From a virus, in IMG/VR virus record IMGVR_UViG_3300050821_008818, positions 7,364 to 71,363 of that record: 64,000 bases of DNA, one strand, 5' to 3'. Position numbers and translations under genes: made by a program. Under the pieces are notes generated by a model, which saw only the letters and a list, made by a program, of their open reading frames with translations, searched no databases and was not told where the DNA came from. Positions 2,485 to 55,044 of this stretch are shown one piece after another (positions within the stretch are counted from its first letter, which is position 1; every line of letters begins with the position of its first letter).

Positions 2485-4899
2485 TTATGTTGGGCATAAC
2501 GCAGGACTCGGAATGCTCGATCCGCCAGAATTAACGGCAGTTACCGTAGCGTGAATGGTATGTCCAACGTCGGTTGATTGTAATGTATAGGTCGATGCCG
2601 TCGCCCCGGTGATGGCAATGCTAGTGTCATCCCAAAACCACTGATATGTGAATGAAGTGGGATTGCCTGACCAGGTTCCATTCGACACCGATAAGGCATT
2701 ACCGACGATTAAAGTTCCGGTAATCACCGGAGGCGCGCTATTAACCGGAATTGTAACTGCAGCAGTCACCTTTCTGCAAGATGGAGGCGGCGGGGGAGCG
2801 ACGCCCGCTGTTCCATTTGGCTGATTGACGCTGCCTCCATTGGGCAGCACGGCTTGCCACAGTGAGCCGTTCCAAGTGAACGGCATAAAAGAACATGTGT
2901 TTGGAAGAACGCCCGGATCAACAGCCTGATTCGTATTGGAAGGCCAATGAAACGTGTTTGTCGAGGTTGCGGTCTGGCAGATGATAAACCCTAGAGACTG
3001 ACCAGTCACCGTCCCATTCGCGATAGTCGGACTAGGCGAGCTTCCCGCACTTAAGCTAAAGAATTGTTCTTTGCCGTTTGCTGGATTGAAAGCTGGGTTA
3101 ATCGTCGGTGGGACGGTGAAGATCCCTTCCGCCGAGTCGGCAAATATGTTCCCGCTGCTTACGATCGGTATGGGAGGAAGGTTGTTATAATAAACCTCGC
3201 CTGCCAATGGCGGCCCCGCGCTTGGTGTGCCAGTTATGGTGCACGTGGATGCCTGGTTGCAGAAAAACTTCGTGATGGTGAATTGCTTGCCAGCCGCTGC
3301 GCCGGTACCTGTCAGGACTTCACCAATTTCTATGGACTGCGTTATGCCGGATGAGAACGGAACCGATAAACTCGTTGCGGTCGGTGCAGGACTTGCAGCT
3401 ACGATGTAGGTAATTTGGTTGTAGTGGTTCGTTATGCCGCCAATCCCTGACGTCACATTAAACACGTTATTTGTAAACGTTTGGTTTGGCGTCCACCATG
3501 AGCCACCAGTGATGGTCTCATAATTGGCACTCAGCGCTGGGTTGCAATTGAATGTGTTACCAGTGTAAACCTGGGTCTCGGCAAATAACTGGCACTCCCC
3601 CGTAAATGTGGCACCAGTAAAATTGGCAATCTTTATTCCGGTGCCCTGAATCAAATTTTGATAGGTACCTCCATTAACATTAAGTGTTGGGATGATCTTA
3701 TCAAACTCCGAATAGCCATCACCTCGAGAATCAAGCTGGTAAGTTCCACCTGACAAATTGACGGTTTGAGTCTGGCCGGCAAAAATCCCCGTTGCGGTAA
3801 CGCCGGTCACCGTGATATTAAGGCCGCCTGAAATAGAGATCGTACCGCTAACTTGGCGAGCGGACGCATTCTGACTGCCCATCCAAGTGAGAAATGTCCC
3901 GCCCATGAATGTGATATTATGGGCAAGATGCATGTTAGTCCGGTCGAGGTCCAACATGCGCGGCGCGCCTGTGGTCACTCCATATACCGGTGTCGCATCG
4001 AGCCAATCAGTTAGATAAGCGTATTTCAAAGGATTCTGGAGAGTCACCGCTCCAGTAGCGGCATTTATGGCCGTGACGGTGTTGAATTCGAAATACCGCG
4101 GATTAGGCGGATAGCTAGGGGTGCCTTGCGCATCAAAACCAAAGATTAGCACGTCATCACCAACATGAAAATTGCTGGTGTCCGTTGCCGTTATCATGGT
4201 AACCGACGAGGCACCTATGGCCGCAGTCTGTATAAGCTGGCCACTCGTATTCGTGGAGGGATCAAAGGGACCATCTCCAGCATTTGAGAAGAGGTCCCCA
4301 CCAAAGGACATAGCAGTGCCATCGATCTGATAGCCAGCATTCGAAGTCATGTTGATAAAACTGGCGCCGGTGGCGACAACATCAACGTTCGTGATGCCCT
4401 TCAGCCAGTGCGTCGAATTTAGGCAGTATGCCCCAGCTGGAACATTAAAGGTGTATTTTGTCGGATTCTTGGTGATCAGGAAATTGCGGGCGTTTATGAA
4501 AGCAGAAGTAGTATCAGTGCAGACCTGCGCCAGTCCATTGGTGACAGTCGTCAAGGGCGTGGTGGAAAGAATCGCGTTCCCCCCAGACACAGCTGTTATC
4601 GTGTAATGAGCCCCTAGCCCGTTGCCAAAAGATGAACCACCATTGTAGAGCGATACAACCTTCCCGACATCGGCGGCTACAAACTGGTGACTTGGCGATG
4701 AAAGGGTTGTTCCATTGTTCGAAACGTCGCTAAGTTGGATGGCATCAGCTATCGCGCCATAATCAGTCACAACGTTGATTGATGGCTGTGTTTGCGCCCA
4801 AGCGGGCGTGAACAGCGCCAGGCCGAGCACAAATCCAATGATACGAGCAATCAATTTCAGTCTCTTGGGGTAAAGAGTTTCAGGATAGCGATGACGCAT
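2485..4899 (-). CDS. exported right-handed beta-helix (pectate-lyase-fold) protein with C-terminal Ig-like domain; true start probably near 4854
   Basis: signal peptide ending LALFTPAWA; INVVTDYGAIAD and DTTSAF pectate_lyase_3-type motifs; C-terminal PVITG...GTWSG.PTSFTYQW...GATASTYTL Ig-like motif. Confidence 0.7.
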   Translation of the reverse strand: MRHRYPETLYPKRLKLIARIIGFVLGLALFTPAWAQTQPSINVVTDYGAIADAIQLSDVSNNGTTLSSPSHQFVAADVGKVVSLYNGGSSFGNGLGAHYTITAVSGGNAILSTTPLTTVTNGLAQVCTDTTSAFINARNFLITKNPTKYTFNVPAGAYCLNSTHWLKGITNVDVVATGASFINMTSNAGYQIDGTAMSFGGDLFSNAGDGPFDPSTNTSGQLIQTAAIGASSVTMITATDTSNFHVGDDVLIFGFDAQGTPSYPPNPRYFEFNTVTAINAATGAVTLQNPLKYAYLTDWLDATPVYGVTTGAPRMLDLDRTNMHLAHNITFMGGTFLTWMGSQNASARQVSGTISISGGLNITVTGVTATGIFAGQTQTVNLSGGTYQLDSRGDGYSEFDKIIPTLNVNGGTYQNLIQGTGIKIANFTGATFTGECQLFAETQVYTGNTFNCNPALSANYETITGGSWWTPNQTFTNNVFNVTSGIGGITNHYNQITYIVAASPAPTATSLSVPFSSGITQSIEIGEVLTGTGAAAGKQFTITKFFCNQASTCTITGTPSAGPPLAGEVYYNNLPPIPIVSSGNIFADSAEGIFTVPPTINPAFNPANGKEQFFSLSAGSSPSPTIANGTVTGQSLGFIICQTATSTNTFHWPSNTNQAVDPGVLPNTCSFMPFTWNGSLWQAVLPNGGSVNQPNGTAGVAPPPPPSCRKVTAAVTIPVNSAPPVITGTLIVGNALSVSNGTWSGNPTSFTYQWFWDDTSIAITGATASTYTLQSTDVGHTIHATVTAVNSGGSSIPSPALCPT

Positions 4900-24338: not shown

Positions 24339-24653
24339 ATGACCATTCGTATAATAGCATTTGTTTTAGTAGTCACGGCAATGTTTGCCTTCGGAATGAC
24401 TGCGCACGCTCATGGATGGGGCGGCGGGGGCGGTGGCTGGCATGGCGGTGGTGGAGGCTGGCACGGCGGCGGAGGCTGGCATGGTGGTGGAGGCGGCTGG
24501 CATGGCGGCGGAGGCTGGCATGGTGGTGGAGGCGGCTGGCATGGCGGCCATGGTTGGCATGGCGGAGGCTGGCATGGTGGCGGAGCCTGGCACGGCAGCA
24601 GCTGCTGGTATTGGGACGAATATGAAGGAGAATGGCGGCGTCGCTGCTATTGA
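24339..24653 (+). CDS. exported Gly/Trp/His-repeat peptide
   Basis: GAGG RBS; signal peptide ending AHA; (GGGWH)n; terminal Cys pair. Confidence 0.75.
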   Translation: MTIRIIAFVLVVTAMFAFGMTAHAHGWGGGGGGWHGGGGGWHGGGGWHGGGGGWHGGGGWHGGGGGWHGGHGWHGGGWHGGGAWHGSSCWYWDEYEGEWRRRCY

Positions 24654-29945: not shown

Positions 29946-30265
29946 AAGCACTGCGGCCCAAGGAAGTTGCAGAGCGTTGGAAATGCAGTGAGCGTCATGT
30001 TTACAAGTTAATCGCAAATGGGTCATTGGACGCTTTTAGAATTGGGGGTAGGCTCTGGCGCATCACAGAAGGTGCCGTCGAAGAGTTTGAAAAATGCCAC
30101 CCAAGTTCAGGGCTGTCCTCTTTAGGGGACACTTTTATGCAGCCTGGCGAGACCGCGGCGAAACTCGTCGAGTCTCCCTCCGCACCCAAAGTCGTGAGAC
30201 TGCCGAGCAGGCGTTACGCGGTTTTGCCGAGCAATACGAAATTTCCAACCGGCCGCAAATCATAA
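29942..30265 (+). CDS. xis: excisionase (HTH_17-type)
   Basis: LRPKEVAERWKCSERHVYKLI..G.L.AFRIGG..WRI; precedes integrase. Confidence 0.8.
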   Translation: MKALRPKEVAERWKCSERHVYKLIANGSLDAFRIGGRLWRITEGAVEEFEKCHPSSGLSSLGDTFMQPGETAAKLVESPSAPKVVRLPSRRYAVLPSNTKFPTGRKS

Positions 30266-31116
30266 CAGTGGAGTTTTGCTGGGATGGGTATCGCGAGACG
30301 CTTAAGGGCAGACCTGCGTTTCAGACTATGGGCTTTGAAGGGCGCTCTATTTTGCCTTTCTTTGGCACTATGGCCACGGACAGTATCAGGGATGACACTT
30401 GCCTGGCTTACGTATCTGAACGAAGGGCCAGAGGCCGTAAAGACGGAACTATATGGACGGAACTGGGACGATTAAGAAGCGCGCTAAAATGGGCGGAGAG
30501 AAAGAACCTGATAGCCAAGGCGCCTTTCATATCCCGCCCGGCTATGTCACCACCACGGGATTTGCGCTTAAGCCGGGAACAAGCTTTGGCTTTTCTATCT
30601 TCATCCATCACCCCGCACATACGACTGTTCACCGTCTTGTCAATGACAACGGGTGCCCGCGCTGGAGCCTTGCTTGGCTTGACATGGAACCAAGTGGACT
30701 TCGAAAGGCGTATCATCCATCTTGGGACGAGCGGCCAGAGTCCAAAAGCTAAAAGGCGCCCCGTAGTTCCGATTAACCAAACCCTAATGGCAGCCCTCCA
30801 GGAGGCCAAAAGAGGCGCGCTGACAGACTTTGTGGTGGAGTGGAGTGGTAGACCAGTCAAATCAGTCAAGAAGGGCCTGGCAGCCGCCGGAAAGCGTTGT
30901 GGTCTACCGTGGGTCACTGCTCATGTGTTCCGGCACTCCGCCGCCTCATGGATGGCTGAAGCCGGTATCAGTATGGATCGAATTGCCAGCTTCCTCGGGC
31001 ATAGCGACAGTAGAATCACCGCCCGTGTATATGCTAAGTTTTCGCCGGATTATCTGAGGGACGCGGCCGAGGCGCTGGAGATTGAGACAATTCACGAGAT
31101 AAAGGTGGCGAAATGA
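30094..31116 (+). CDS. int: tyrosine integrase
   Basis: TGAR, KAKR, HVFRH, LGH, VYAK catalytic set. Confidence 0.95.
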   Translation: MPPKFRAVLFRGHFYAAWRDRGETRRVSLRTQSRETAEQALRGFAEQYEISNRPQIITVEFCWDGYRETLKGRPAFQTMGFEGRSILPFFGTMATDSIRDDTCLAYVSERRARGRKDGTIWTELGRLRSALKWAERKNLIAKAPFISRPAMSPPRDLRLSREQALAFLSSSITPHIRLFTVLSMTTGARAGALLGLTWNQVDFERRIIHLGTSGQSPKAKRRPVVPINQTLMAALQEAKRGALTDFVVEWSGRPVKSVKKGLAAAGKRCGLPWVTAHVFRHSAASWMAEAGISMDRIASFLGHSDSRITARVYAKFSPDYLRDAAEALEIETIHEIKVAK

Positions 31117-47726: not shown

Positions 47727-48995
47727 TTAGCAGTACCTCCAGGACGCACCATTATAAGCCACCGGACAATTTACTGCCGTTGCGCCTCCGCCGGTTGGAA
47801 TAGCATTGAACGCTGCTGCCGCATTAGAAACTGTGTCGCTACAATAAACCATCATCCCTCTTTGTGGGGATGCAATGCCTGCTAATCCTGCAATAGTGTA
47901 GACGGGAAGTTGTATCCATGACGTTGCGACTGCAGTATCAGTTGTAAACCCTTGGGTAACCGTAAGACCCTGAGTTGCTTGCGCAAGTCCGCCCGCACCA
48001 TCTGATGCCACCTCAAAAGCGCCAGTGCTTAAACCACCCAAAACGCTTGCGAGTCCCGAGACGCCAAGCGTGCCGGTGACATTGGTATTCCCATTATGAA
48101 GAATGCTTGATGCTGCATCGGTGATCGATGTTCCGGCCGTACGCGTATGGGTTGTGCCCGCAGTATCACTAATTGAAGTGGCTGCGGTGCGAGAATGTGC
48201 AGCTGACGTGTTTGTGATAATCCCGTTGACGAGATCAAGAACGATAGAATGAGAAGAACCTCCGCCAGATGCCTTGTGCGTTAATGTCTTTGCCAATAGA
48301 TCAAGGATCATCGTGTGCGTGTTGGTTCCGTCAGTAGAGGAGTGTATTACGCTATTTTTGGTTGACCTTAATCCACTCGAAAATCCGGTGCTAAACGCGC
48401 TACTGTCTGACTTCGGATCCATCGTTATGGAATGGGAGATTTGAGCCCCATCTGACGCCGTGTGCGTCATCTTCCCGCCCTTGCCATTCGCCTTCGTTGC
48501 AGCGGCGGCATAATTTCCCGCTGTCGCACTATGGCTCATGTTAGGCTGAGTATTATCAGTCTGCCCGTCGGCCTGCTTTTGTGTTGTCGCGGTTGATAGA
48601 GAACCGTCCATATTCATCTTGAGGGAAGAATTGAACTTCGTAATGTGAACATGCTCGCCTGATTGGGCTTGCGGAGGCATGTCAACGTCAGAATGAAGAC
48701 GCGCGGCAATCTTGCCGCTTTCGAAATCTCCCTCTTGATATCGAACTATAACCTGATCGCCAGTCGTCTTGCCGTCGCCTGGCACGAGTCCGGTAACCGT
48801 CCCATAGTTTGGGCCCGCCAAATGAGTTTCAATCGGAATTTGCCCGGATTCTAATTGCTCGGGCTGAAACATTACCTTGGCAGTGTAAGTTTTAGGATCG
48901 TAACTAGTTACTAGCCCGATGCGCTCATGTCTCCGGCCGGCCGCCCAGTTCTCAATGCACCGATAAATCATCGGCTCGAGATCGGCGACAGTCAT
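47727..48995 (-). CDS. baseplate spike (gpV-like) with extended C-terminus
   Basis: GLVTSYDP....AKV...PE OB-fold start; GDQV.V. Confidence 0.8.
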   Translation of the reverse strand: MTVADLEPMIYRCIENWAAGRRHERIGLVTSYDPKTYTAKVMFQPEQLESGQIPIETHLAGPNYGTVTGLVPGDGKTTGDQVIVRYQEGDFESGKIAARLHSDVDMPPQAQSGEHVHITKFNSSLKMNMDGSLSTATTQKQADGQTDNTQPNMSHSATAGNYAAAATKANGKGGKMTHTASDGAQISHSITMDPKSDSSAFSTGFSSGLRSTKNSVIHSSTDGTNTHTMILDLLAKTLTHKASGGGSSHSIVLDLVNGIITNTSAAHSRTAATSISDTAGTTHTRTAGTSITDAASSILHNGNTNVTGTLGVSGLASVLGGLSTGAFEVASDGAGGLAQATQGLTVTQGFTTDTAVATSWIQLPVYTIAGLAGIASPQRGMMVYCSDTVSNAAAAFNAIPTGGGATAVNCPVAYNGASWRYC

Positions 48996-50041
48996 TCTGC
49001 GCTGCGTCCCTCGCCGGCAGTCGCTGCATTGATTATCATCGTGTAGCCGCCCATGCCGAATGAATGCTTAATCTCGTCAATCTGATATTGCTGATCGAAC
49101 GGGCCTGTTCCGGAAAGCTGAAGAGACATTGAGACGTCGATCGACGTGTCCCCAACGACTTCAGCCTCAAGGTGAAAGGTATGGCGCGTCATCTCTTGCG
49201 CCCTCATTTTTGCAAAATTCTGGATTTGATCCTGCACGAAAGCAGGAATATGATAGGAGGTAGTTGTTTTGCCACCAGTACCTTGCACGGTTGCGGTATT
49301 CTCAAGCATTTTCTTTTTGCGAGAATGCCAGCTTTTCGCAGTTGTTTCGTTAGTCTTGGCAGCCTGCGCATTGTAGGAGATGGTAAGATGCAGGCAGTCC
49401 GAAATCATTGGACTGCCAGGAGTTGGCGGGACATAATTGAGGGAATAGCTGCCGCCAGAACTGCCCTGGCTCACGTAGTTGAGAGAAGTTCCCTTGACGA
49501 ACCAGCGAGCGCCATCTAGTTCGGCGAGTTTATGGATAACTGATGCAAAACTTTGGCCGTCCGTAAGTTTCGCGTATTCATCTTTCAGGATTCGGCCGGC
49601 CTTAATCATTCCTTCGCCGACTTGCGCCTGAAGGCCAGCACGCTGCGCCAAGTCCTGAACGATATCGGTTGTCTTCTTATTTACCCATTTTTCGGCTGAC
49701 TTCATTTCGTGCAGTTTGGCCGAGCTGTCGCGACCCGTCGCGGTAATTACGCGCTGGGTAAAATCGAAACTGACGTTGTCCAACTCTCCCTGAACTAAGG
49801 TAGAACCGTTTACGATGATGCTAGCACTTGTTTGGCTGCCGCCGGCGAGTGCGCTAAGAGCGCCTCCATCCATCGGCAGATTTGCGGTGAATGTTGCGCT
49901 TCGCCGTGTCGCCGTTTGACAAACTTGGCCACTGGTAAGCAAGAACTGGCCGCCGCAAACCAGATAGGCGGTGTGCGGCTTAACGCCAGTCGAGATCGCC
50001 AAATTACGCCCCCAAGATACCGCTCGTATCCGTAGTGTCAA
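48992..50041 (-). CDS. baseplate hub (gpD/Mu gp44-like)
   Basis: TGRDSSAKL; YQIDEIKHSF..GY; position before spike. Confidence 0.75.
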   Translation of the reverse strand: MTLRIRAVSWGRNLAISTGVKPHTAYLVCGGQFLLTSGQVCQTATRRSATFTANLPMDGGALSALAGGSQTSASIIVNGSTLVQGELDNVSFDFTQRVITATGRDSSAKLHEMKSAEKWVNKKTTDIVQDLAQRAGLQAQVGEGMIKAGRILKDEYAKLTDGQSFASVIHKLAELDGARWFVKGTSLNYVSQGSSGGSYSLNYVPPTPGSPMISDCLHLTISYNAQAAKTNETTAKSWHSRKKKMLENTATVQGTGGKTTTSYHIPAFVQDQIQNFAKMRAQEMTRHTFHLEAEVVGDTSIDVSMSLQLSGTGPFDQQYQIDEIKHSFGMGGYTMIINAATAGEGRSAE

Positions 50042-50246
50042 AAAGAGCCGGTATAGCTATTTGCGTCAGTCCGTTGATCCACGGATCGACAAGATTATTT
50101 TCCTTAGCCAGCACGGGCCAATACATGGCATTGCCAAGCTCTGTCGCAGCAATATGAAACAAAGTCGTGTTTGAAACCAGAATAGTCCGGAACGGAACGG
50201 CCTCTCCGACATAAGGTTGAGCGACGGTTGCCATTTGAACAAACAT
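50004..50246 (-). CDS. LysM-like/gpX-like baseplate protein
   Basis: TLFHIAATELGNAMYWPVLAKENNLVDPW...IAIP. Confidence 0.7.
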   Translation of the reverse strand: MFVQMATVAQPYVGEAVPFRTILVSNTTLFHIAATELGNAMYWPVLAKENNLVDPWINGLTQIAIPALFDTTDTSGILGA

Positions 50247-50256
50247 TCCTTATATA
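50228..50256 (+). promoter_or_regulatory. sigma70-type promoter of tRNA-like RNA B
   Basis: TTGCCA-N17-TATATA ends 5 nt before the RNA. Confidence 0.65.
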
Positions 50257-50261
50257 AAACT

Positions 50262-50445
50262 GGTGAGCGGCGGCGTGGAAAGCAGACACGCCTTGATAAT
50301 TTAGCAATCAAAGCCGCACCTTGAAGAGCGACGGGCCTTTAACCCGGAAGTGCGGGGAGTTGGTGTACCCCCTGCGGCACGACAGATGCTAAAGGCCGCG
50401 GTAGCTCAGAAGAGGTAAGCCGGGATAGCGTCCGGCCCGCTCACT
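50262..50445 (+). ncRNA. tRNA-like RNA B (~184 nt, no encoded CCA)
   Basis: GTGAGCGG/CCGCTCAC terminal stem stacked on GCCGG-GATAGCGT-CCGGC; D-arm-like GGCGTG-GAAAGCAGA-CACGCC. Confidence 0.65.
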
Positions 50446-50756
50446 TACCCGGTTATCTCAATATTCAGCACCATACGGCCGATGACGCCGCGAAGATCGG
50501 ATAGCGTTTGTTCGTCTTGGGCGCTCGTTAGAAGGGCAAGGAGGCCATTAACCGTGTCTCCGGGCATCTTGGATCCCTGAAACGTATCAAGGGCGCCAGC
50601 GGCGGTTTTTTCGGCCGCATCAATGGCCATAGCTAGCGTTGAAGCTTGCTGAAGTAGCGCGCGACGAATTGTTACGCTTGCCGACAGGTATGACCCCATA
50701 GCCACAAGCGCCGCATTAAGATTTGAGACGCCAGTCGTAACGGAGGAAGGGATCAT
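50445..50756 (-). CDS. tail/baseplate-region hypothetical protein
   Basis: 103 aa, overlapping upstream stop. Confidence 0.6.
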   Translation of the reverse strand: MIPSSVTTGVSNLNAALVAMGSYLSASVTIRRALLQQASTLAMAIDAAEKTAAGALDTFQGSKMPGDTVNGLLALLTSAQDEQTLSDLRGVIGRMVLNIEITG

Positions 50757-51199
50757 AGCCCAACCAAGCTCATTCCTGTGGCCATGTCCGCCCCCAAAAG
50801 CTGATCAATTCCCTGCGTAATCGCGCCAAGCGCGCCAGACATAGTATCAACAGCCACGACAACCGTTATATCGTAATGCCACAGCTGAGGGTAACGCTCC
50901 GGCTTTGCCGTAAAATGAGAGACGATAACCGTCCAGAAATTTCCGCCCCAAACGAGAGGAACCGGCGCCCCGGATACACGCAAAGCGTCAAGCGCACGAA
51001 CATTCTCTCGAGCGTCCGATCCATAGAATGTTCCGGACCAGGAATAGTCGTCATCATCAGGGCCAAGAGTATCAATAACACGCGAGCCGCCTGGCAGCTT
51101 GTGAATTGCCATAGCTTGCGCGCCGCCGAGATGAATATCATGCGGCGTCGACCACTCGTCGAAGGAAATTCCGCCAAGGGTGAGAGTATCAGTGGCCAT
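50753..51199 (-). CDS. tail tube initiator (gpU-like)
   Basis: HKLPGGSRVIDTLGPD...WSG.F...LDALR..G.PV.L.W. Confidence 0.7.
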   Translation of the reverse strand: MATDTLTLGGISFDEWSTPHDIHLGGAQAMAIHKLPGGSRVIDTLGPDDDDYSWSGTFYGSDARENVRALDALRVSGAPVPLVWGGNFWTVIVSHFTAKPERYPQLWHYDITVVVAVDTMSGALGAITQGIDQLLGADMATGMSLVGL

Positions 51200-51200
51200 C

Positions 51201-51911
51201 TCAAATCAGCATCCCATTTTCTCTAGCAAACTCGATTGGATCTTTTGACCACTTGGTGCCATTGCATTTAGCACACAACCACTGAAGATTGCGCGGCCAA
51301 TTAGAGCCACCCCGCACTAATGGAATGATGTGATCTATATGGCCCCTCCCGCGTAATTTCTTACGGCAGTATGCGCAGCGGTCTTTTTGAAGAGCACGAA
51401 TAGATGCTATATCAGCGGCGGTGTGAGTTCCGGGCGCAAGCAATTTCCTCGCGCGTCTGTTGCGAACTCCTTCCGCCTTTTTGTCAGCATTGTTCTTGCG
51501 GTACTTGGCGGCATAAGCCTTTACCTTGTCAGGATTAGCCAATCTCCACGCGGCCGCCAGAGATCTTACCCTGTCAGGATTAGCCTTTTTCCACACTAGA
51601 TTACGTGCGTTAATCTCATCCGGATTGGCTTTGTAATGTCCGCGTCTTTGGGCATTGTATTTATTAGCATTAGCCTTCCACCGTTCGGTATCTTTGGCTT
51701 TCTCCCTGTCTGCGTTAGCCTTACGCCACTTGGCATAATAATCCGGATCAGATTGCCGCCGCGCGGCGGCACGGGCCCTCTCCTTTTCCGCGTTGGCTTT
51801 GTACCACTCATCATAATAGGTTGGATTATTCTTGCGCCATTTGGCAGTACGGGCTCGCGCATTGGCTTTCTTAATCTCTTGCCGTTCAAGAGAATCTCGT
51901 GCAATTTTCAT
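51201..51911 (-). CDS. HNH endonuclease with basic W/Y-R-K-x-N repeats
   Basis: CAYC...HIDHIIPL.RGGSN...NLQ.LC.KCN..K; start reassigned to MKIARD. Confidence 0.85.
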   Translation of the reverse strand: MKIARDSLERQEIKKANARARTAKWRKNNPTYYDEWYKANAEKERARAAARRQSDPDYYAKWRKANADREKAKDTERWKANANKYNAQRRGHYKANPDEINARNLVWKKANPDRVRSLAAAWRLANPDKVKAYAAKYRKNNADKKAEGVRNRRARKLLAPGTHTAADIASIRALQKDRCAYCRKKLRGRGHIDHIIPLVRGGSNWPRNLQWLCAKCNGTKWSKDPIEFARENGMLI

Positions 51912-51924
51912 TATCAGAATATGG

Positions 51925-54108
51925 TTAAGCAGTGGCTGTTTGTCGATCTGCTCCTGCGAAAGTGTGATAGCCGTCGAAGTAAGCTGCACCTCGGCTATGC
52001 TCGCTCGACTTCAAGATGTGAGTAACACTGTTAGAGGCTATCATTTTCCCATCAAGATATACTGGGTTGTGGATGTTTGCTTGAACAGTCTGCTGACCCT
52101 TGTACGAAGGAGCATGCGGCTGGGTCGACATATATTTCCTATAGGCCCCTGAATTATACGTCGACCAGTCTCGATAACCACCGGCCCGCCGATGCATAGC
52201 AAGCGCAACCCGGGCGTTTGTCGCCGGATCGTACAAATCTTCGTTACTACTCAAGCCAAATTGTCGGCGCCTTTGAGGCCCCATCGCACCAAGCATGTTA
52301 ATTTGCCAAAGCCCGTAAGAATTGTCACCGGTCCTAAAATTGGCATTATGCGCTAGAGGATTGCCGCCTGATTCCGGCTGAGCGAGTGCTGCAAACGTGC
52401 GCGCTTCCTCATCAGTTGCGCCTTGGGCTTTCATAAGATCATAAGCTTTTGCAACGTTATAGGCGCCCCCTCCGGCCTGGCCGCCATACGACGCGTTAAT
52501 GAGACCGCCACCGCCTCCTAACCCGCCCCCGCCGAAGCTCGCCTTTTTAAGCAGGCCACCAAGGGTTGTGATCCAATCCGAAATCATCTGGCCGATACCA
52601 TGAAGCCATTCCGCAAATTTTGTGATCGCATCCTTAATGGTGTTGAATCCTGTCGATACCGTATCCCAATTGAGCGCAGCTAATGCTGTTATCGAGGCGA
52701 TCAACGCGCCAACCAAACCACCAACGGCCGCTCCTGGTGGTCCGAACAGCAGCCCAATTAGCGATCCTGCACCAGCTCCAATGCCGATGGCCCCAAGCTG
52801 TGCAAACAGTTTACCCAAACTTTGGATGAGTTCAGGATTTGAATTCGCAAGGGAGCCTATCGATGTGAACATAGAAGTGAGGTTTTTCATCACAGGCATC
52901 GCGGCCAACATGAGTGGCGCACCAATCGCCGACAACATTGACTCGAATTGATCGCTAAATGCCTTCTTAACACCTACCGGGTTGCGAGTGGTAAAATCCT
53001 GGTAAGCTTGCTCAAGTGGCTTAACCTGGCCCGCGAGTCCAAGATCTTTTGCTATCTGATCTCGGAACCCCTTATCGCCAAACATTTGTATCATCTTGGC
53101 GGCATTTCGGTTGGGCGCTTCCTTGCCTAGCATGTTCTGATATAGCGCTTCGTCGCCGCCTGCAGCCTTCATCATATGAGGATAGACAATTTCCTTAACC
53201 CAGCCCGGAAGGTCCCCCATATATTCTAGCGAGCCAAGTATCGCGCCCGGCTGAAGTTGCAACTTGCCACCGCCGAAGCCCGTCTTTGTCGTTTTAGACA
53301 TATCCAACAAGCCGGCCTTTTCCAAAGCAGCCGCCTGTTGCTTTGAGAGAGTCATTGTTCCCTGCTGCAATTGCTGCAAGGTCTGCATAGCGGTGCCAGC
53401 ACGAAAACCACCAAGATCCGCCATTGCAACAGCGGCTGGACCGAAGGCCTCTGGCTTCAAATTCATCCACGCCGTGCCGCCGGTCTTCGCAAATGTCTGG
53501 AAATCTTGCGGTGTCAACTTGCCGCCAAACGCCGTGATATATGAAAATGCCTGATCGGTTAATTGCTGTAGCTTCTTCGGATCAGTGGAAATACCTTTCA
53601 TTTCCGCCGAACGCAGTAGCTTATAATAGGCGCCTGATTGATCGCTACCAAGCGCATTAGATATTAGCGCGTCAGCCATCATTGCACGAGGTGCAAGCGC
53701 TGCTGCCGCAGCCTGGCTACCAGTGACCGAACGAAGCTCATTAACTGTTTTCAGATATTCCGAAGCCGTCGAAGTCGGAACAGCCTTGGCTACTCGCTCA
53801 AAATAGTCGGCTTGAAGTTTCAGGACATCGTTAAGGACCACACCGGACCGCTGTAGTTTATCTTGCTGGTTAAGCAGCTCAGTTCCCTTGTCAGCAAGTT
53901 TGGTCAAACCAACAACAACTGCAGTGCCAGCCGCTGCGCCAAGGGCGGAGAAAGCAGCCTTACCGGCTGCACCCATTTTCTCAAAACTATTTTCTAGATT
54001 TCTAATCCCCCCTGAGAGCTTAAACATATCCTCGCGAATCACATGCAGAACGGGACTTATCGCGTTCATCATGCTGATTTTTGTGGCCATTTCGTAAAGT
54101 ATAGACAT
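51925..54108 (-). CDS. tape measure protein with C-terminal lytic transglycosylase domain
   Basis: Ala/Gly-rich helical protein; ESGGNP.AHN...SYGLWQIN...LYDPATNA. Confidence 0.85.
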   Translation of the reverse strand: MSILYEMATKISMMNAISPVLHVIREDMFKLSGGIRNLENSFEKMGAAGKAAFSALGAAAGTAVVVGLTKLADKGTELLNQQDKLQRSGVVLNDVLKLQADYFERVAKAVPTSTASEYLKTVNELRSVTGSQAAAAALAPRAMMADALISNALGSDQSGAYYKLLRSAEMKGISTDPKKLQQLTDQAFSYITAFGGKLTPQDFQTFAKTGGTAWMNLKPEAFGPAAVAMADLGGFRAGTAMQTLQQLQQGTMTLSKQQAAALEKAGLLDMSKTTKTGFGGGKLQLQPGAILGSLEYMGDLPGWVKEIVYPHMMKAAGGDEALYQNMLGKEAPNRNAAKMIQMFGDKGFRDQIAKDLGLAGQVKPLEQAYQDFTTRNPVGVKKAFSDQFESMLSAIGAPLMLAAMPVMKNLTSMFTSIGSLANSNPELIQSLGKLFAQLGAIGIGAGAGSLIGLLFGPPGAAVGGLVGALIASITALAALNWDTVSTGFNTIKDAITKFAEWLHGIGQMISDWITTLGGLLKKASFGGGGLGGGGGLINASYGGQAGGGAYNVAKAYDLMKAQGATDEEARTFAALAQPESGGNPLAHNANFRTGDNSYGLWQINMLGAMGPQRRRQFGLSSNEDLYDPATNARVALAMHRRAGGYRDWSTYNSGAYRKYMSTQPHAPSYKGQQTVQANIHNPVYLDGKMIASNSVTHILKSSEHSRGAAYFDGYHTFAGADRQTATA

Positions 54109-54118
54109 GTGTCTGCCC

Positions 54119-54147
54119 TTGACAATTAATTAGGCGGTGCTTATATA
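54119..54147 (+). promoter_or_regulatory. sigma70-type promoter of antisense moron
   Basis: TTGACA-N17-TATATA ends 6 nt before ATG 54154. Confidence 0.7.
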
Positions 54148-54153
54148 CACCAC

Positions 54154-54300
54154 ATGACTAAGAACCCGAGACTATCGATAACATTTACCAAGCGACAGCT
54201 TGTCTTTATTGAGCGGGAGGCTACTAGGCTTGGTATCACGGTTGCGGAGACCGTTCGCCGCATCGTTGATTTTCACATAGAACGCAAGGAGAAATCATAA
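54154..54300 (+). CDS. 48-aa ribbon-helix-helix protein
   Basis: MTKNPRLSITFTKRQLVFIEREATRLGITVAETVRRIVD; TAATG-coupled to next gene. Confidence 0.7.
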   Translation: MTKNPRLSITFTKRQLVFIEREATRLGITVAETVRRIVDFHIERKEKS

Positions 54301-54533
54301 TGAAAACTTTTATCGCAATCGCGCTTATCTTAGCCGTCCTGCATAGCAGCTCATACGCCAAAGAATCTTGCCCCGAATTCAAGGGGGCTGATAAGGTCAT
54401 CTATCATACATGCAAATCTCGTTGGCCAGACGATTTCCACATGCTCAAATACTGCATAGACAATCAGGAAGAAGCCCTTTCCGATCTAAAGAAAAGGTTT
54501 TGCAGTGTCACAAAGGATGAGGAAAAACTCTGA
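54300..54533 (+). CDS. exported small Cys-containing protein
   Basis: signal peptide; C...WP.DF.M..YC...Q..A. Confidence 0.65.
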   Translation: MKTFIAIALILAVLHSSSYAKESCPEFKGADKVIYHTCKSRWPDDFHMLKYCIDNQEEALSDLKKRFCSVTKDEEKL

Positions 54534-54793
54534 TGACCAAAATGAGAACTTCTATTGCAATCGCGTTTGCGCTCGCAACGCTGATCAGCACACCAATCCG
54601 CGCCGGCGGCTGGTACGACGGATACGGTGGCGCCTGGCACTCCGACAGTACGGGGTACGGCGACGACGGTATGCTGCATTATGGCGGTGAGCGGCCCTAC
54701 GGAAGCGAAAGGAGCGGCCATTTGAATGGGCACCGTCACCGGCACTGCTGGATCACTTACGATGAAGGCTATCAGATCAGGATTTGTCGATAA
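54533..54793 (+). CDS. exported Gly/His/aromatic-rich peptide
   Basis: signal peptide; GGWYDGYGG...HRHRHCW...RICR. Confidence 0.6.
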   Translation: MTKMRTSIAIAFALATLISTPIRAGGWYDGYGGAWHSDSTGYGDDGMLHYGGERPYGSERSGHLNGHRHRHCWITYDEGYQIRICR

Positions 54794-55044
54794 TGCGCTT
54801 CTGGTTTAGTGTCCCATTCATCCGCCGTACTCGTATTGGCATCAGCGTATCGGACCGCGAAATCGCGCGAGCATTTCACCGTAATCCGCCAACGCCTACT
54901 GAAATGGAACAGCGCGCAATAGAAGAAGCGATAGTCGACGCAAAATCAAAGGCATTTGCCGCGCGCTGGTCGCCATGGGTAGCCTTTGTTATGTGGGTGA
55001 TAATTTTGTGGACAATATGGCATGCGATCCTATGGCTTTTTTGA
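54784..55044 (+). CDS. small membrane protein
   Basis: MRFWFS...RIGIS N-terminus, C-terminal TM. Confidence 0.55.
   Translation: MSIMRFWFSVPFIRRTRIGISVSDREIARAFHRNPPTPTEMEQRAIEEAIVDAKSKAFAARWSPWVAFVMWVIILWTIWHAILWLF

What the first reader, a model, noticed from the sequence alone, without database searches (positions are those of the whole stretch)
50262..50445. tRNA-like RNA B: altered elbow loops and switchable core
Seen: 8-9-bp terminal stem, D-like and T-like arms with non-standard loops (GAAAGCAGA, GATAGCGT). In the core, TAAAGGCC pairs with GGCCTTTA while overlapping TGCTAAA can instead pair with the loop TTTAGCA; CCGCAC/GTGCGG offers another alternative. No encoded CCA. Inference: tRNA-shaped scaffold with a conformational switch.
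Basis: partly seen in the sequence, partly recalled or inferred. Interest (0 to 1): 0.78.

Follow-up and report, generated by a model that had tools for sequence, protein, structure and literature searches.

The report
Phage-borne tRNA-shaped small RNA gene
The flagged stretch is a small tRNA-shaped RNA gene with its own promoter, inserted backwards between two phage baseplate genes, and it belongs to a large family of such RNAs in phages of several bacterial phyla that is absent from the standard RNA family library and whose function is unknown.

Summary

It is a 220-nt cassette (about 50229-50448), promoter plus RNA gene. It is absent from all 7 close relatives, where the two flanking baseplate genes overlap.

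It belongs to a family: 120 distinct complete copies from viral, metagenome and prophage DNA. All share a covarying 7-bp closing stem, near-invariant D-like and T-like arms and a non-conserved 33-185-nt centre.

Five indirect tests put the RNA on the window's + strand, antisense to the phage operon:
- co-orientation with adjacent tRNA genes;
- -10 boxes placed upstream;
- folding energy;
- neighbour gene strand;
- T-arm hairpins inside the centre.

Contigs from two metatranscriptome runs hold the element.

ARAGORN and Rfam 15 find nothing. No protein partner is linked. Function is unknown. The proposed conformational switch is unsupported.

The parts
50228..50233 (+). -35-like hexamer TTGCCA of the RNA's own promoter; it lies at the left edge of the inserted cassette
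   Evidence: Sequence. TTGCCA-16-TTATAT / TTGCCA-17-TATATA was listed among the joint -35/-10 matches. The + strand small-gene cassette at 54120 uses the same geometry and the same CTTATATA box (my reading). The generic sigma-70 scan did not list it, because the -10 lacks a T at position 6.
50250..50255 (+). -10-like hexamer TTATAT (overlapping TATATA at 50251-50256); the predicted start is about 50262
   Evidence: Across the family, a -10-like hexamer lies 3-9 nt upstream of the 7-bp stem in 37 of 113 sense flanks against 5 of 115 antisense flanks.
50262..50270 (+). 5' strand of the closing (acceptor-like) stem, GGTGAGCGG; the family-wide 7-bp stem is 50264-50270
   Evidence: pair probabilities 0.72-1.0; covariation.
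50272..50292 (+). D-like arm GGCGTG / GAAAGCAGA / CACGCC, following linker C50271
   Evidence: pair probabilities 0.989-0.995; near-invariant in the family.
50293..50417 (+). Variable central domain: a small hairpin plus a long irregular arm.
   Evidence: No similar centre was found among the other 119 members.
50418..50436 (+). Conserved A, then the T-like arm GCCGG / GATAGCGT / CCGGC
   Evidence: (stem covaries; U, G, C, G of the loop are invariant).
50437..50445 (+). 3' strand of the closing stem, CCGCTCACT; no CCA follows
50229..50448 (.). Inserted cassette (promoter plus RNA gene) relative to close relatives
   Evidence: In L004 these 220 nt are replaced by 3 nt. L005, L006 and L007 are likewise uninterrupted.
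50445..50756 (-). 103-aa baseplate-module ORF; its stop codon abuts the RNA's 3' end on the other strand
50004..50246 (-). 80-aa gpX-like ORF (matches the C-terminal part of phrog_21362). Its new ribosome-binding site and start codons lie on the reverse strand of the RNA's promoter

Best explanation
Window 50262-50445 (+) is a gene for a small, stable, non-coding RNA of about 180 nt with a tRNA-like upper half.

Its parts, in order:
- a 7-9-bp acceptor-like stem formed by the two ends;
- a short linker;
- a D-like hairpin;
- a lineage-specific central domain in place of the anticodon and variable arms;
- a 5-bp T-like hairpin stacked directly on the closing stem.

It lies on a 220-nt cassette that brings its own promoter (TTGCCA-16-TTATAT, predicted start about 50262). 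The cassette was inserted, antisense, between two translationally coupled baseplate genes of a temperate phage. On the other strand, the promoter region supplies a new ribosome-binding site and start codon for the downstream baseplate gene.

It is one member of a large phage-borne family.

Inferred, not shown:
- About a third of members start transcription at the first base of the stem from their own promoter. The others are co-transcribed with tRNA arrays or phage genes and cut out by tRNA-maturing enzymes (RNase P at the 5' end, a 3' trimming pathway, possibly CCA addition).
- The conserved upper half is a handle that mimics the tRNA acceptor/T-arm/elbow for a host factor shared across bacterial phyla. 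It also gives stability, while the variable centre is cargo.
- In prophages it is probably expressed like a moron during lysogeny.

The biological role is not known. A decoy or competitor for enzymes that recognise the tRNA upper half, for example tRNA-directed defence nucleases, is my leading guess (roughly 0.3).
For: **Real structure.** The closing stem and the T-like stem covary. On 85 members 99.2% of cells pair, 10 of 17 pairs change on both sides, and 0 of 500 shuffles match. The outer three closing-stem pairs use all four Watson-Crick types.

**Family size.**
- 15 viral loci hold the T-arm motif.
- 25 viral loci hold the D-arm 25-mer.
- 5 loci occur among species genomes.
- 127 of 151 matches parsed as complete elements, giving 120 distinct copies of 90-250 nt.

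**Strand is + in the window.**
- (i) All 11 ARAGORN tRNAs within 410 nt of an element (7 loci) are on the sense strand, with gaps of 11-16 nt in three loci. Overall 12 tRNAs are on the same strand and 3 opposite, in 9 of 120 loci.
- (ii) A TAnnnT hexamer lies 4-8 nt upstream of the 7-bp stem in 29 of 113 sense flanks against 5 of 115 antisense flanks, peaking at 6 nt. Joint -35/-10 matches number 11 of 113 against 0 of 115, and include the window.
- (iii) The sense strand folds better in 22 of 27 members (Wilcoxon p = 0.006).
- (iv) Homology-validated neighbour ORFs: 55 on the same strand against 19 opposite.
- (v) By my reading, canonical T-arm hairpins inside the centre occur in 7 loci, all sense. 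One centre holds a whole tRNA scoring 32 bits on Rfam tRNA (L158).

**Insertion.** The cassette is absent from 7 of 7 close relatives at this junction. The covariance model finds nothing in the 6 relatives searched.

**One copy per genome.** The window has 1 hit at 78.9 bits. Each of 5 bacterial genomes has one strong hit. The 3 of those contexts with PHROG matches look like prophage.

**Temperate context.**
- An integrase lies at window 30094-31116.
- Full-length members occur in 4 cultured temperate-type phages at 56-75 bits.
- Three of these lie beside a cI, repressor-like or integrase gene. The fourth, POI1126, lies in an unannotated gap near the major capsid gene.

**Weak hint of an RNA product.** Contigs of two metatranscriptome runs from two studies hold 160 and 148 nt of the element with 0 differences. 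Both stop at 50275/50276 without a loose end, where a DNA contig runs on.
Against: - No strand-specific read, RNA end or processing event was seen. Contigs carry no strand, DNA can contaminate RNA libraries, and contig ends may reflect graph branching at the family's shared modules.
- The window's -10 box lacks the usual final T, and the generic scan did not call this promoter.
- G-U against A-C counts in stems give only a weak strand signal. In the first 27 members there are 13 G-U against 9 A-C when read on the sense strand. In the T stem of 120 members there are 7 against 2, with a parsing bias towards G-U.
- The energy test did not control for a constant offset from the conserved arms.
- The stems are almost purely Watson-Crick, which would also suit a DNA-level element.
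- Two members sit inside protein genes in the sense direction. L042 has a 145-residue insert in a TerL gene and L046 sits in a primase linker. Excision by tRNA-processing enzymes would cut those mRNAs, which fits a selfish element better than a useful gene.
- The D- and T-like loops do not match tRNA loop consensus, so recognition by tRNA enzymes is conjecture.
Confidence: 0.7

Rival explanations
1. It is a selfish mobile element rather than a useful gene. The conserved ends serve mobility at the DNA or RNA level (MITE-like, intron-like or SINE-like), the centre is hitch-hiking cargo, and the tRNA-like shape serves copying or excision.
For: - Presence/absence differs among near-identical phages, and a divergent relative sits at another junction of the same operon in L004.
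- The identical element has a different left flank in a DNA run (run X2 record 13).
- Related centres appear in unrelated flanks: L047/L160 and L057/L065.
- Direct repeats of the target flank two insertions: 12 nt in L004 (read from the sequence) and 37 nt in L047.
- Two members are inserted in frame inside TerL and primase genes.
- No protein partner is linked: the largest neighbour cluster covers 6 of 120 loci.
Against: - There is a single copy per phage or genome, not the many copies of a MITE.
- The outer closing stem varies in sequence, unlike terminal inverted repeats.
- The flanking repeats differ in length, and each covers an overlap between genes that must be kept, so selection can explain them.
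- The 71-kb record has no reverse transcriptase.
- The strict cross-phylum conservation of hairpin loops, and promoters placed exactly at the stem, point to a functional RNA product.
- This rival is not exclusive of the main reading.
Confidence: 0.17
2. It acts only in cis on the minus-strand baseplate mRNA, as a processing site, stabiliser or insulator between the 103-aa and 80-aa genes.
For: All flanking genes are on the minus strand. The minus strand folds as well as the plus strand.
Against: - Family members have no fixed gene context.
- Most are oriented so that the sense strand is the tRNA and neighbour-gene strand. The window is one of the minority in reverse orientation.
- Relatives function without it, with overlapping genes.
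- The -10 boxes are on the other strand.
Confidence: 0.04
3. It is a decayed or highly aberrant tRNA gene, or a tRNA-derived attachment-site remnant.
For: The geometry is tRNA-like. Members lie in tRNA arrays. In phage Persinger the element lies 12 nt from the integrase gene. tRNA-like pieces occur in some centres.
Against: - The non-tRNA loops are conserved across phyla, so they are under selection and not decaying.
- There is no anticodon arm.
- ARAGORN finds 0 at default settings among 120 members, and the Rfam tRNA model does not hit the scaffold.
- The outer closing stem varies freely, unlike an attachment site tied to one host tRNA.
Confidence: 0.05

Closest known systems
Transfer RNA (Rfam RF00005), especially long-arm class II tRNAs
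   Same: It has a 7-bp closing stem, a 2-nt linker, a stem-loop in the D position, and a 5-bp stem-loop in the T position abutting the 3' strand of the closing stem. Genes sit in phage tRNA arrays at tRNA-like spacing.
   Different: The D-like stem has 5-6 bp with loop GAAAGCAGA and no GG. The T-like loop is 8 nt, AGUAGCGC or GAUAGCGU, not GTTCRANYC. There is no anticodon arm; in its place is a 33-185-nt variable domain. No CCA is encoded. ARAGORN and RF00005 do not detect it.
Bacterial Y RNA-like YrlA (Rfam RF02553)
   Same: It is a non-coding RNA whose ends pair into a stem and which carries a tRNA-mimicking module. YrlA is also reported in phages (PMC4201824; I saw only the search listing and the start of the abstract).
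   Different: RF02553 does not match. The only weak hit, 26 bits against a cut-off of 69, lies on true tRNAs in L085. The record has no Ro60/TROVE gene and no recurrent neighbour. In YrlA the tRNA-like loops are canonical (recalled, not tested here).
Stable RNAs 'species 1 and 2' of the phage T4 tRNA cluster (recalled from memory; no call)
   Same: These are phage-encoded stable small RNAs of unknown function that lie in a tRNA gene cluster and are matured with the tRNAs.
   Different: No sequence or structure comparison was made here. This is a lead only.
ROOL and GOLLD RNAs (recalled from memory)
   Same: They are phage or prophage-borne structured RNAs of unknown function, often next to tRNA genes.
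   Different: They are several times larger. No Rfam match to them was found at this locus or in the family members scanned.
Phage morons (promoter plus gene cassettes inserted between late genes)
   Same: It is an autonomous promoter-bearing cassette inserted between two adjacent late genes, present or absent among close relatives. A protein-coding cassette of the same style lies at 54120-55044.
   Different: The cargo is a structured RNA and not a protein gene. No terminator was found after it.

Membership tests
tRNA (RF00005) | 7-bp acceptor stem formed by the 5' and 3' ends | tested here: met
   Position 7 from the junction is Watson-Crick in 107 of 120 members and position 8 in 85 of 120. 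All 7 pairs are 99.0% paired in 85 members.
tRNA (RF00005) | T arm: 5-bp stem with a 7-nt GTTCRANYC loop | tested here: not met
   The 5-bp stem is present and covaries. The loop, however, is 8 nt: AGTAGCGC in most members and GATAGCGT in the window.
tRNA (RF00005) | D arm with conserved GG in the loop, and an anticodon arm with a 7-nt loop | tested here: not met
   The D-like loop is GAAAGCAGA. The centre is 33-185 nt with no conserved arm.
tRNA (RF00005) | Detected by tRNA finders or the Rfam covariance model | tested here: not met
   ARAGORN finds 0 in the window and 0 of 120 members at default settings. Rfam gives no hit in the window. Among 20 member loci, only L158's nested tRNA is hit.
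Y RNA-like YrlA (RF02553) | Match to the family model, and linkage to a Ro60 (TROVE) gene | tested here: not met
   No element is hit at E <= 1. TROVE is found in 0 of 1 record. No recurrent neighbour protein exists.
tmRNA | tRNA-like domain plus a tag reading frame, detectable by ARAGORN | tested here: not met
   (-m): 0 found.
Retron msr/msd RNA | Reverse transcriptase gene immediately downstream | tested here: not met
   RVT_1 is found in 0 of 1 record. No shared neighbour lies within 7 kb.
MITE / REP-type repeat | Many copies per genome with sequence-conserved terminal inverted repeats and a fixed target duplication | tested here: not met
   The window has 1 hit. Each of 5 bacterial genomes has 1 strong hit, and two have a further weak hit. 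The outer stem varies. The flanking repeats are 12 and 37 nt.
Group I / II self-splicing intron | Match to intron models; interruption of a gene that is restored by excision | tested here: not met
   There are no Rfam intron hits. In the window the flanking ORFs are separate genes in relatives. The TerL case (L042) is an in-frame open insertion. Splicing itself cannot be tested with these tools.
Moron-type cassette | Own promoter, inserted between adjacent phage genes, variable among relatives | tested here: met
   Promoter activity itself is not testable here.

The most novel reading that the evidence does not exclude
The family is a portable tRNA-mimic carrier. A conserved acceptor/T/D-like upper half gives precise excision, stability and access to a universal tRNA-binding host factor. 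It presents interchangeable RNA cargo, from simple hairpins to a whole tRNA. It spreads as a promoter-plus-RNA cassette among phages of several bacterial phyla. Its role would be counter-defence: decoying or titrating immune nucleases or toxins that recognise the tRNA upper half. Alternatively it would be the first SINE-like, RNA-shaped selfish element described in phages.
Probability: 0.25. Interest if true: 0.9.

Novelty: new variant of a known kind. Interest (0 to 1): 0.78.

Why it matters
Phage non-coding RNAs other than tRNAs are poorly charted. Here one short architecture keeps identical 25-nt stretches in prophages of four phyla: Verrucomicrobiota, Acidobacteriota, and Alpha- and Betaproteobacteria. 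It is frequent in metagenomes and rare in bacterial genomes: 5 hits among the species genomes, and 0 of the 150 other genomes of one order.

Such conservation of loops, without any linked protein, implies a partner common to all bacteria. That makes the family a ready probe for how phages exploit the tRNA-handling machinery.

Four cultured phages carry it, so the question can be tested directly. It also shows that unannotated gaps and some 'hypothetical proteins' in phage genomes are RNA genes: the Orimi01 and PotUPM1 members overlap annotated CDS.

Tried and rejected
- **Split gene or intron.** phrog_21362 (321 positions) matches the 148-aa ORF at its N-terminal part and the 80-aa ORF at its C-terminal part. 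This suggested one gene interrupted by an intron. I rejected it because relatives without the element keep three separate, overlapping ORFs.
- **Coding potential.** No frame is preferentially open in 28 elements.
- **Minus-strand RNA.** This was my first working orientation; argue against it.
- **Antisense targets.** A search for matches to the window's element elsewhere in the window (short-word BLAST) gave only chance 9-14-nt matches.
- **tRNA detection at lowered ARAGORN thresholds.** This gave 23 scattered hits on both strands, which I took as noise.
- **Linked protein.** None was found within 4 kb or 7 kb.
- **Ro60, reverse transcriptase and RtcB.** None is found in the record. The record is estimated 69% complete, so absence is not proven.
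- **Primase case (L046).** Homologues are too distant, at about 24% identity, to fix the insertion borders.
- **Read laying.** The two RNA runs showed no cover on the flanking genes.
- **Generic promoter scan.** It did not list the proposed promoter.
- **Literature.** Four text searches (one search was a syntax slip) found no description of this family.
- **PMC10690425.** I read passages only. It catalogues 8,495 candidate structured RNAs from IMG/VR.

Full report
**1. What is at the coordinates**

The window is part of a 71-kb IMG/VR virus record. Around the finding, every long ORF is on the minus strand and belongs to a tail/baseplate module:
- tape measure protein, 51925-54108;
- an HNH endonuclease, 51201-51989;
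- a gpU-like 148-aa ORF, 50753-51199;
- a 103-aa ORF, 50445-50756;
- an 80-aa gpX-like ORF, 50004-50246;
- a hub-like protein, 48992-50041;
- gpV-, gpW- and gpJ-like proteins further on.

The finding fills the 198-nt gap between the 103-aa and 80-aa ORFs.

The + strand folds to -77.0 kcal/mol with a z-score of -3.2. The - strand folds to -77.7 with z -3.7. ARAGORN finds no tRNA or tmRNA in the window. Rfam 15 gives no match at gathering scores. In 49500-51200 it gives nothing relevant at E <= 10.

**2. It is an insertion**

Eight loci encoding relatives of the 148-aa protein were fetched. Seven are close enough for DNA alignment.
- In L004, L005, L006 and L007, the 103-aa ORF and the next ORF overlap in the usual ATGA manner. 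Window 50229-50448 (220 nt) corresponds to 3 nt there.
- L002 and L003 carry a different 147-nt insert at the same junction. I read it as a small hydrophobic ORF.
- L008 carries about 730 nt with ORFs.

Other junctions of the same operon carry other inserts. This operon is therefore a mosaic of small cassettes.

At first, a phrog_21362 match split over two ORFs suggested an interrupted gene. The relatives show three separate genes, so I dropped the intron reading.

**3. It belongs to a family**

The insert at another junction in L004 shares a 24-nt stretch with the window element, with compensatory changes in its stem.
- Searching that motif gave 15 viral loci.
- These revealed a second conserved module. 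Its 25-mer gave 25 viral loci and 5 loci among about 186,000 species genomes: Chthoniobacteraceae, Sulfitobacter, Comamonas, an acidobacterium and a Methylocella MAG.
- Of 151 matches, 127 parsed as complete elements and 24 were cut or unparsed. That left 120 distinct sequences of 90-250 nt.
- The covariance model later recovered most unparsed and several divergent members.

Common plan, written on the strand that is + in the window:
- a 7-bp closing stem, whose inner four pairs are mostly GCGG/CCGC and whose outer three are free;
- a CG linker;
- the hairpin GCGUG-GAAAGCAGA-CACGC;
- a centre of 33-185 nt with no conserved sequence;
- an A;
- a 5-bp hairpin with loop AGUAGCGC (GAUAGCGU in the window);
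- the 3' strand of the closing stem.

No CCA follows.

On 85 aligned members, 99.2% of cells pair, 10 of 17 pairs change on both sides, and no shuffle or slid control comes near. The D-like arm was the search pattern and parsing required pairing, so these figures are partly selected. The outer stem pairs and the T-stem identities were not selected for sequence, and they carry the covariation.

**4. Which strand**

The flanking genes argue for the minus strand, and I worked in that orientation at first. Five independent lines point to the + strand.
- **tRNA neighbours.** ARAGORN finds 15 tRNAs in 9 of the 120 loci. All 11 that lie within 410 nt of an element (7 loci) are on the sense strand. 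Three sit 11-16 nt away, as neighbours in an array do.
- **Promoter boxes.** A -10-like hexamer lies 4-8 nt upstream of the 7-bp stem in 29 of 113 sense flanks, against 5 of 115 antisense flanks and 4-8 in control windows. The peak, at 6 nt, puts the start at the first base of the stem. With a wider -10 definition the figures are 37 against 5. Joint -35/-10 matches are 11 against 0.
- **Folding energy.** The sense strand folds better in 22 of 27 members. I did not control for an offset from the conserved arms.
- **Neighbour genes.** ORFs validated by cross-locus homology are on the sense strand 55 times against 19.
- **T-arm hairpins.** Canonical T-arm hairpins occur in some centres in the sense direction only, by my reading. 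One centre (L158) holds a full tRNA at 32 bits.

G-U against A-C counts are only weakly in favour. The window is thus one of the minority of members that lie antisense to their neighbours.

**5. The window's own promoter**

Upstream of the stem lies TTGCCA (50228-50233), then 16 nt, then TTATAT (50250-55). The generic scan missed it because the -10 box has no T at the last position.

The + strand cassette of three small genes at 54120-55044 has TTGACA-16-TTATAT with the same CTTATATA box (my reading). This resembles the CTTGAC/CTATAT promoter consensus of Alphaproteobacteria, which I recall from memory.

The -35 box coincides with the left border of the inserted DNA. The cassette is therefore a complete transcription unit. 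On the other strand, the same bases provide AAGGA and two in-frame ATGs for the 80-aa gene.

**6. RNA evidence**

One sequence search found 8 runs, and I laid four of them.

Two metatranscriptome runs from two studies each hold one contig that lies wholly within the element, at 50275-50434 and 50276-50423. Both have no differences and both stop at the same left place without a loose end, where a DNA contig continues. Contigs have no strand, DNA may be present in RNA libraries, and contig ends may reflect branching at the shared modules.

The DNA runs add two observations:
- another family member with a 73-nt centre in a 64.6-kb contig;
- the identical element with a different left flank.

**7. 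Copy number, hosts and context**

- The model R1 finds one hit in the window: 50264-50443 +, 78.9 bits.
- Each of the five bacterial genomes has one strong hit, and two have weak second hits that are divergent members.
- None of the 150 other genomes sampled from the order of one carrier has a hit.
- Of four bacterial contexts queried against PHROGs, three look like prophage: repressor, helicase loader, DnaB and tail proteins. The one L052 ORF queried matched nothing.
- The record has an integrase.
- Four cultured phages carry full-length members at 56-75 bits. In PotUPM1, Persinger and Orimi01 the element lies beside a cI, integrase or repressor-like gene. In POI1126 it lies in an unannotated gap near the capsid gene.
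- No protein family recurs near the element. The largest cluster covers 6 of 120 loci.
- The record has no Ro60, reverse transcriptase or RtcB.

**8. Mobility**

- Presence/absence differs among close relatives.
- The same element occurs with different flanks.
- Related centres occur with different stems and flanks.
- Flanking direct repeats of 12 nt (L004) and 37 nt (L047) duplicate gene overlaps.
- Two members lie inside genes. In L042, residues 284-428 of a TerL are an in-frame, stop-free insert relative to phage C75C1 TerL, and the insert starts with this element. In L046 the element sits in a primase linker.

The mechanism of movement is unknown.

**9. The switch**

The two alternatives have probability 0.0 and cost 5.4-7.6 kcal/mol when forced. 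They lie in the non-conserved centre, and no other member has a similar centre. The switch is therefore neither supported nor testable by comparison.

**10. Verdict**

This is a real, structured, phage-borne small RNA gene of a large family that Rfam 15 does not hold. It is tRNA-like in its upper half and is not a tRNA. Strand and promoter are well supported by indirect tests. The RNA product is hinted at. Function is unknown.

The Methylocella MAG (L052, genome G005) is flagged unpublished. It contributes:
- one of the five genome hits;
- one row in the counts;
- one of the four contexts queried.

Noticed in passing
window 54109-55044 (+): This is a + strand cassette inside the minus-strand structural module. 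It has a promoter-like TTGACA-16-TTATAT at 54120-54147, followed by three small ORFs (77, 86 and 86 aa). At least two have signal-peptide-like N-termini, and none has a Pfam match. It looks like a classical moron.
   Followed up: partly
window 51201-51989 (-): An HNH endonuclease gene overlaps the end of the tape measure gene. Relative L008 lacks it: there the tape measure gene runs straight into the gpU-like gene. It is therefore a free-standing mobile endonuclease insertion.
   Followed up: partly
L042:3433-5646 (+): This terminase large subunit gene has a 145-residue in-frame insert between its two homology blocks. The insert consists of a family member followed by two further palindromic, stem-closed elements. 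One of them may be a distant relative that lacks a centre.
   Followed up: partly
L158:935-1094 (+): This family member's central domain holds a whole tRNA-like gene (Rfam tRNA 32 bits at 987-1066; ARAGORN calls tRNA-Ala with a 5-nt insert). L115 and L079 have tRNA D-arm and T-loop pieces inside the T-like stem.
   Followed up: partly
L002:2311-2422 and 2733-2881; L005:2831-3026; L006:3967-4190 and 4727-4809: Other gene junctions of the same baseplate operon in relatives carry unrelated short inserts. Several encode tiny hydrophobic or acidic ORFs on either strand. These junctions are hot spots for cassette gain.
   Followed up: no
L179:1501-1594 (+) and L178:1501-1648 (+): These divergent members sit in the same bacterial genomes as canonical ones. 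In L179 both loops differ together: the D-like loop is GATGGA and the T-like loop is AATCAAGC. This hints that the two loops interact.
   Followed up: no
window 24425-24541 (+): Five staggered, overlapping copies of a 39-nt glycine/tryptophan-rich coding repeat (GGCTGGCA... units).
   Followed up: no
L184 (Pseudomonas phage Orimi01) 1299-1528 and L181 (PotUPM1) 1328-1528: The RNA overlaps CDS annotated as hypothetical proteins in the public records. These are probably over-called ORFs.
   Followed up: no
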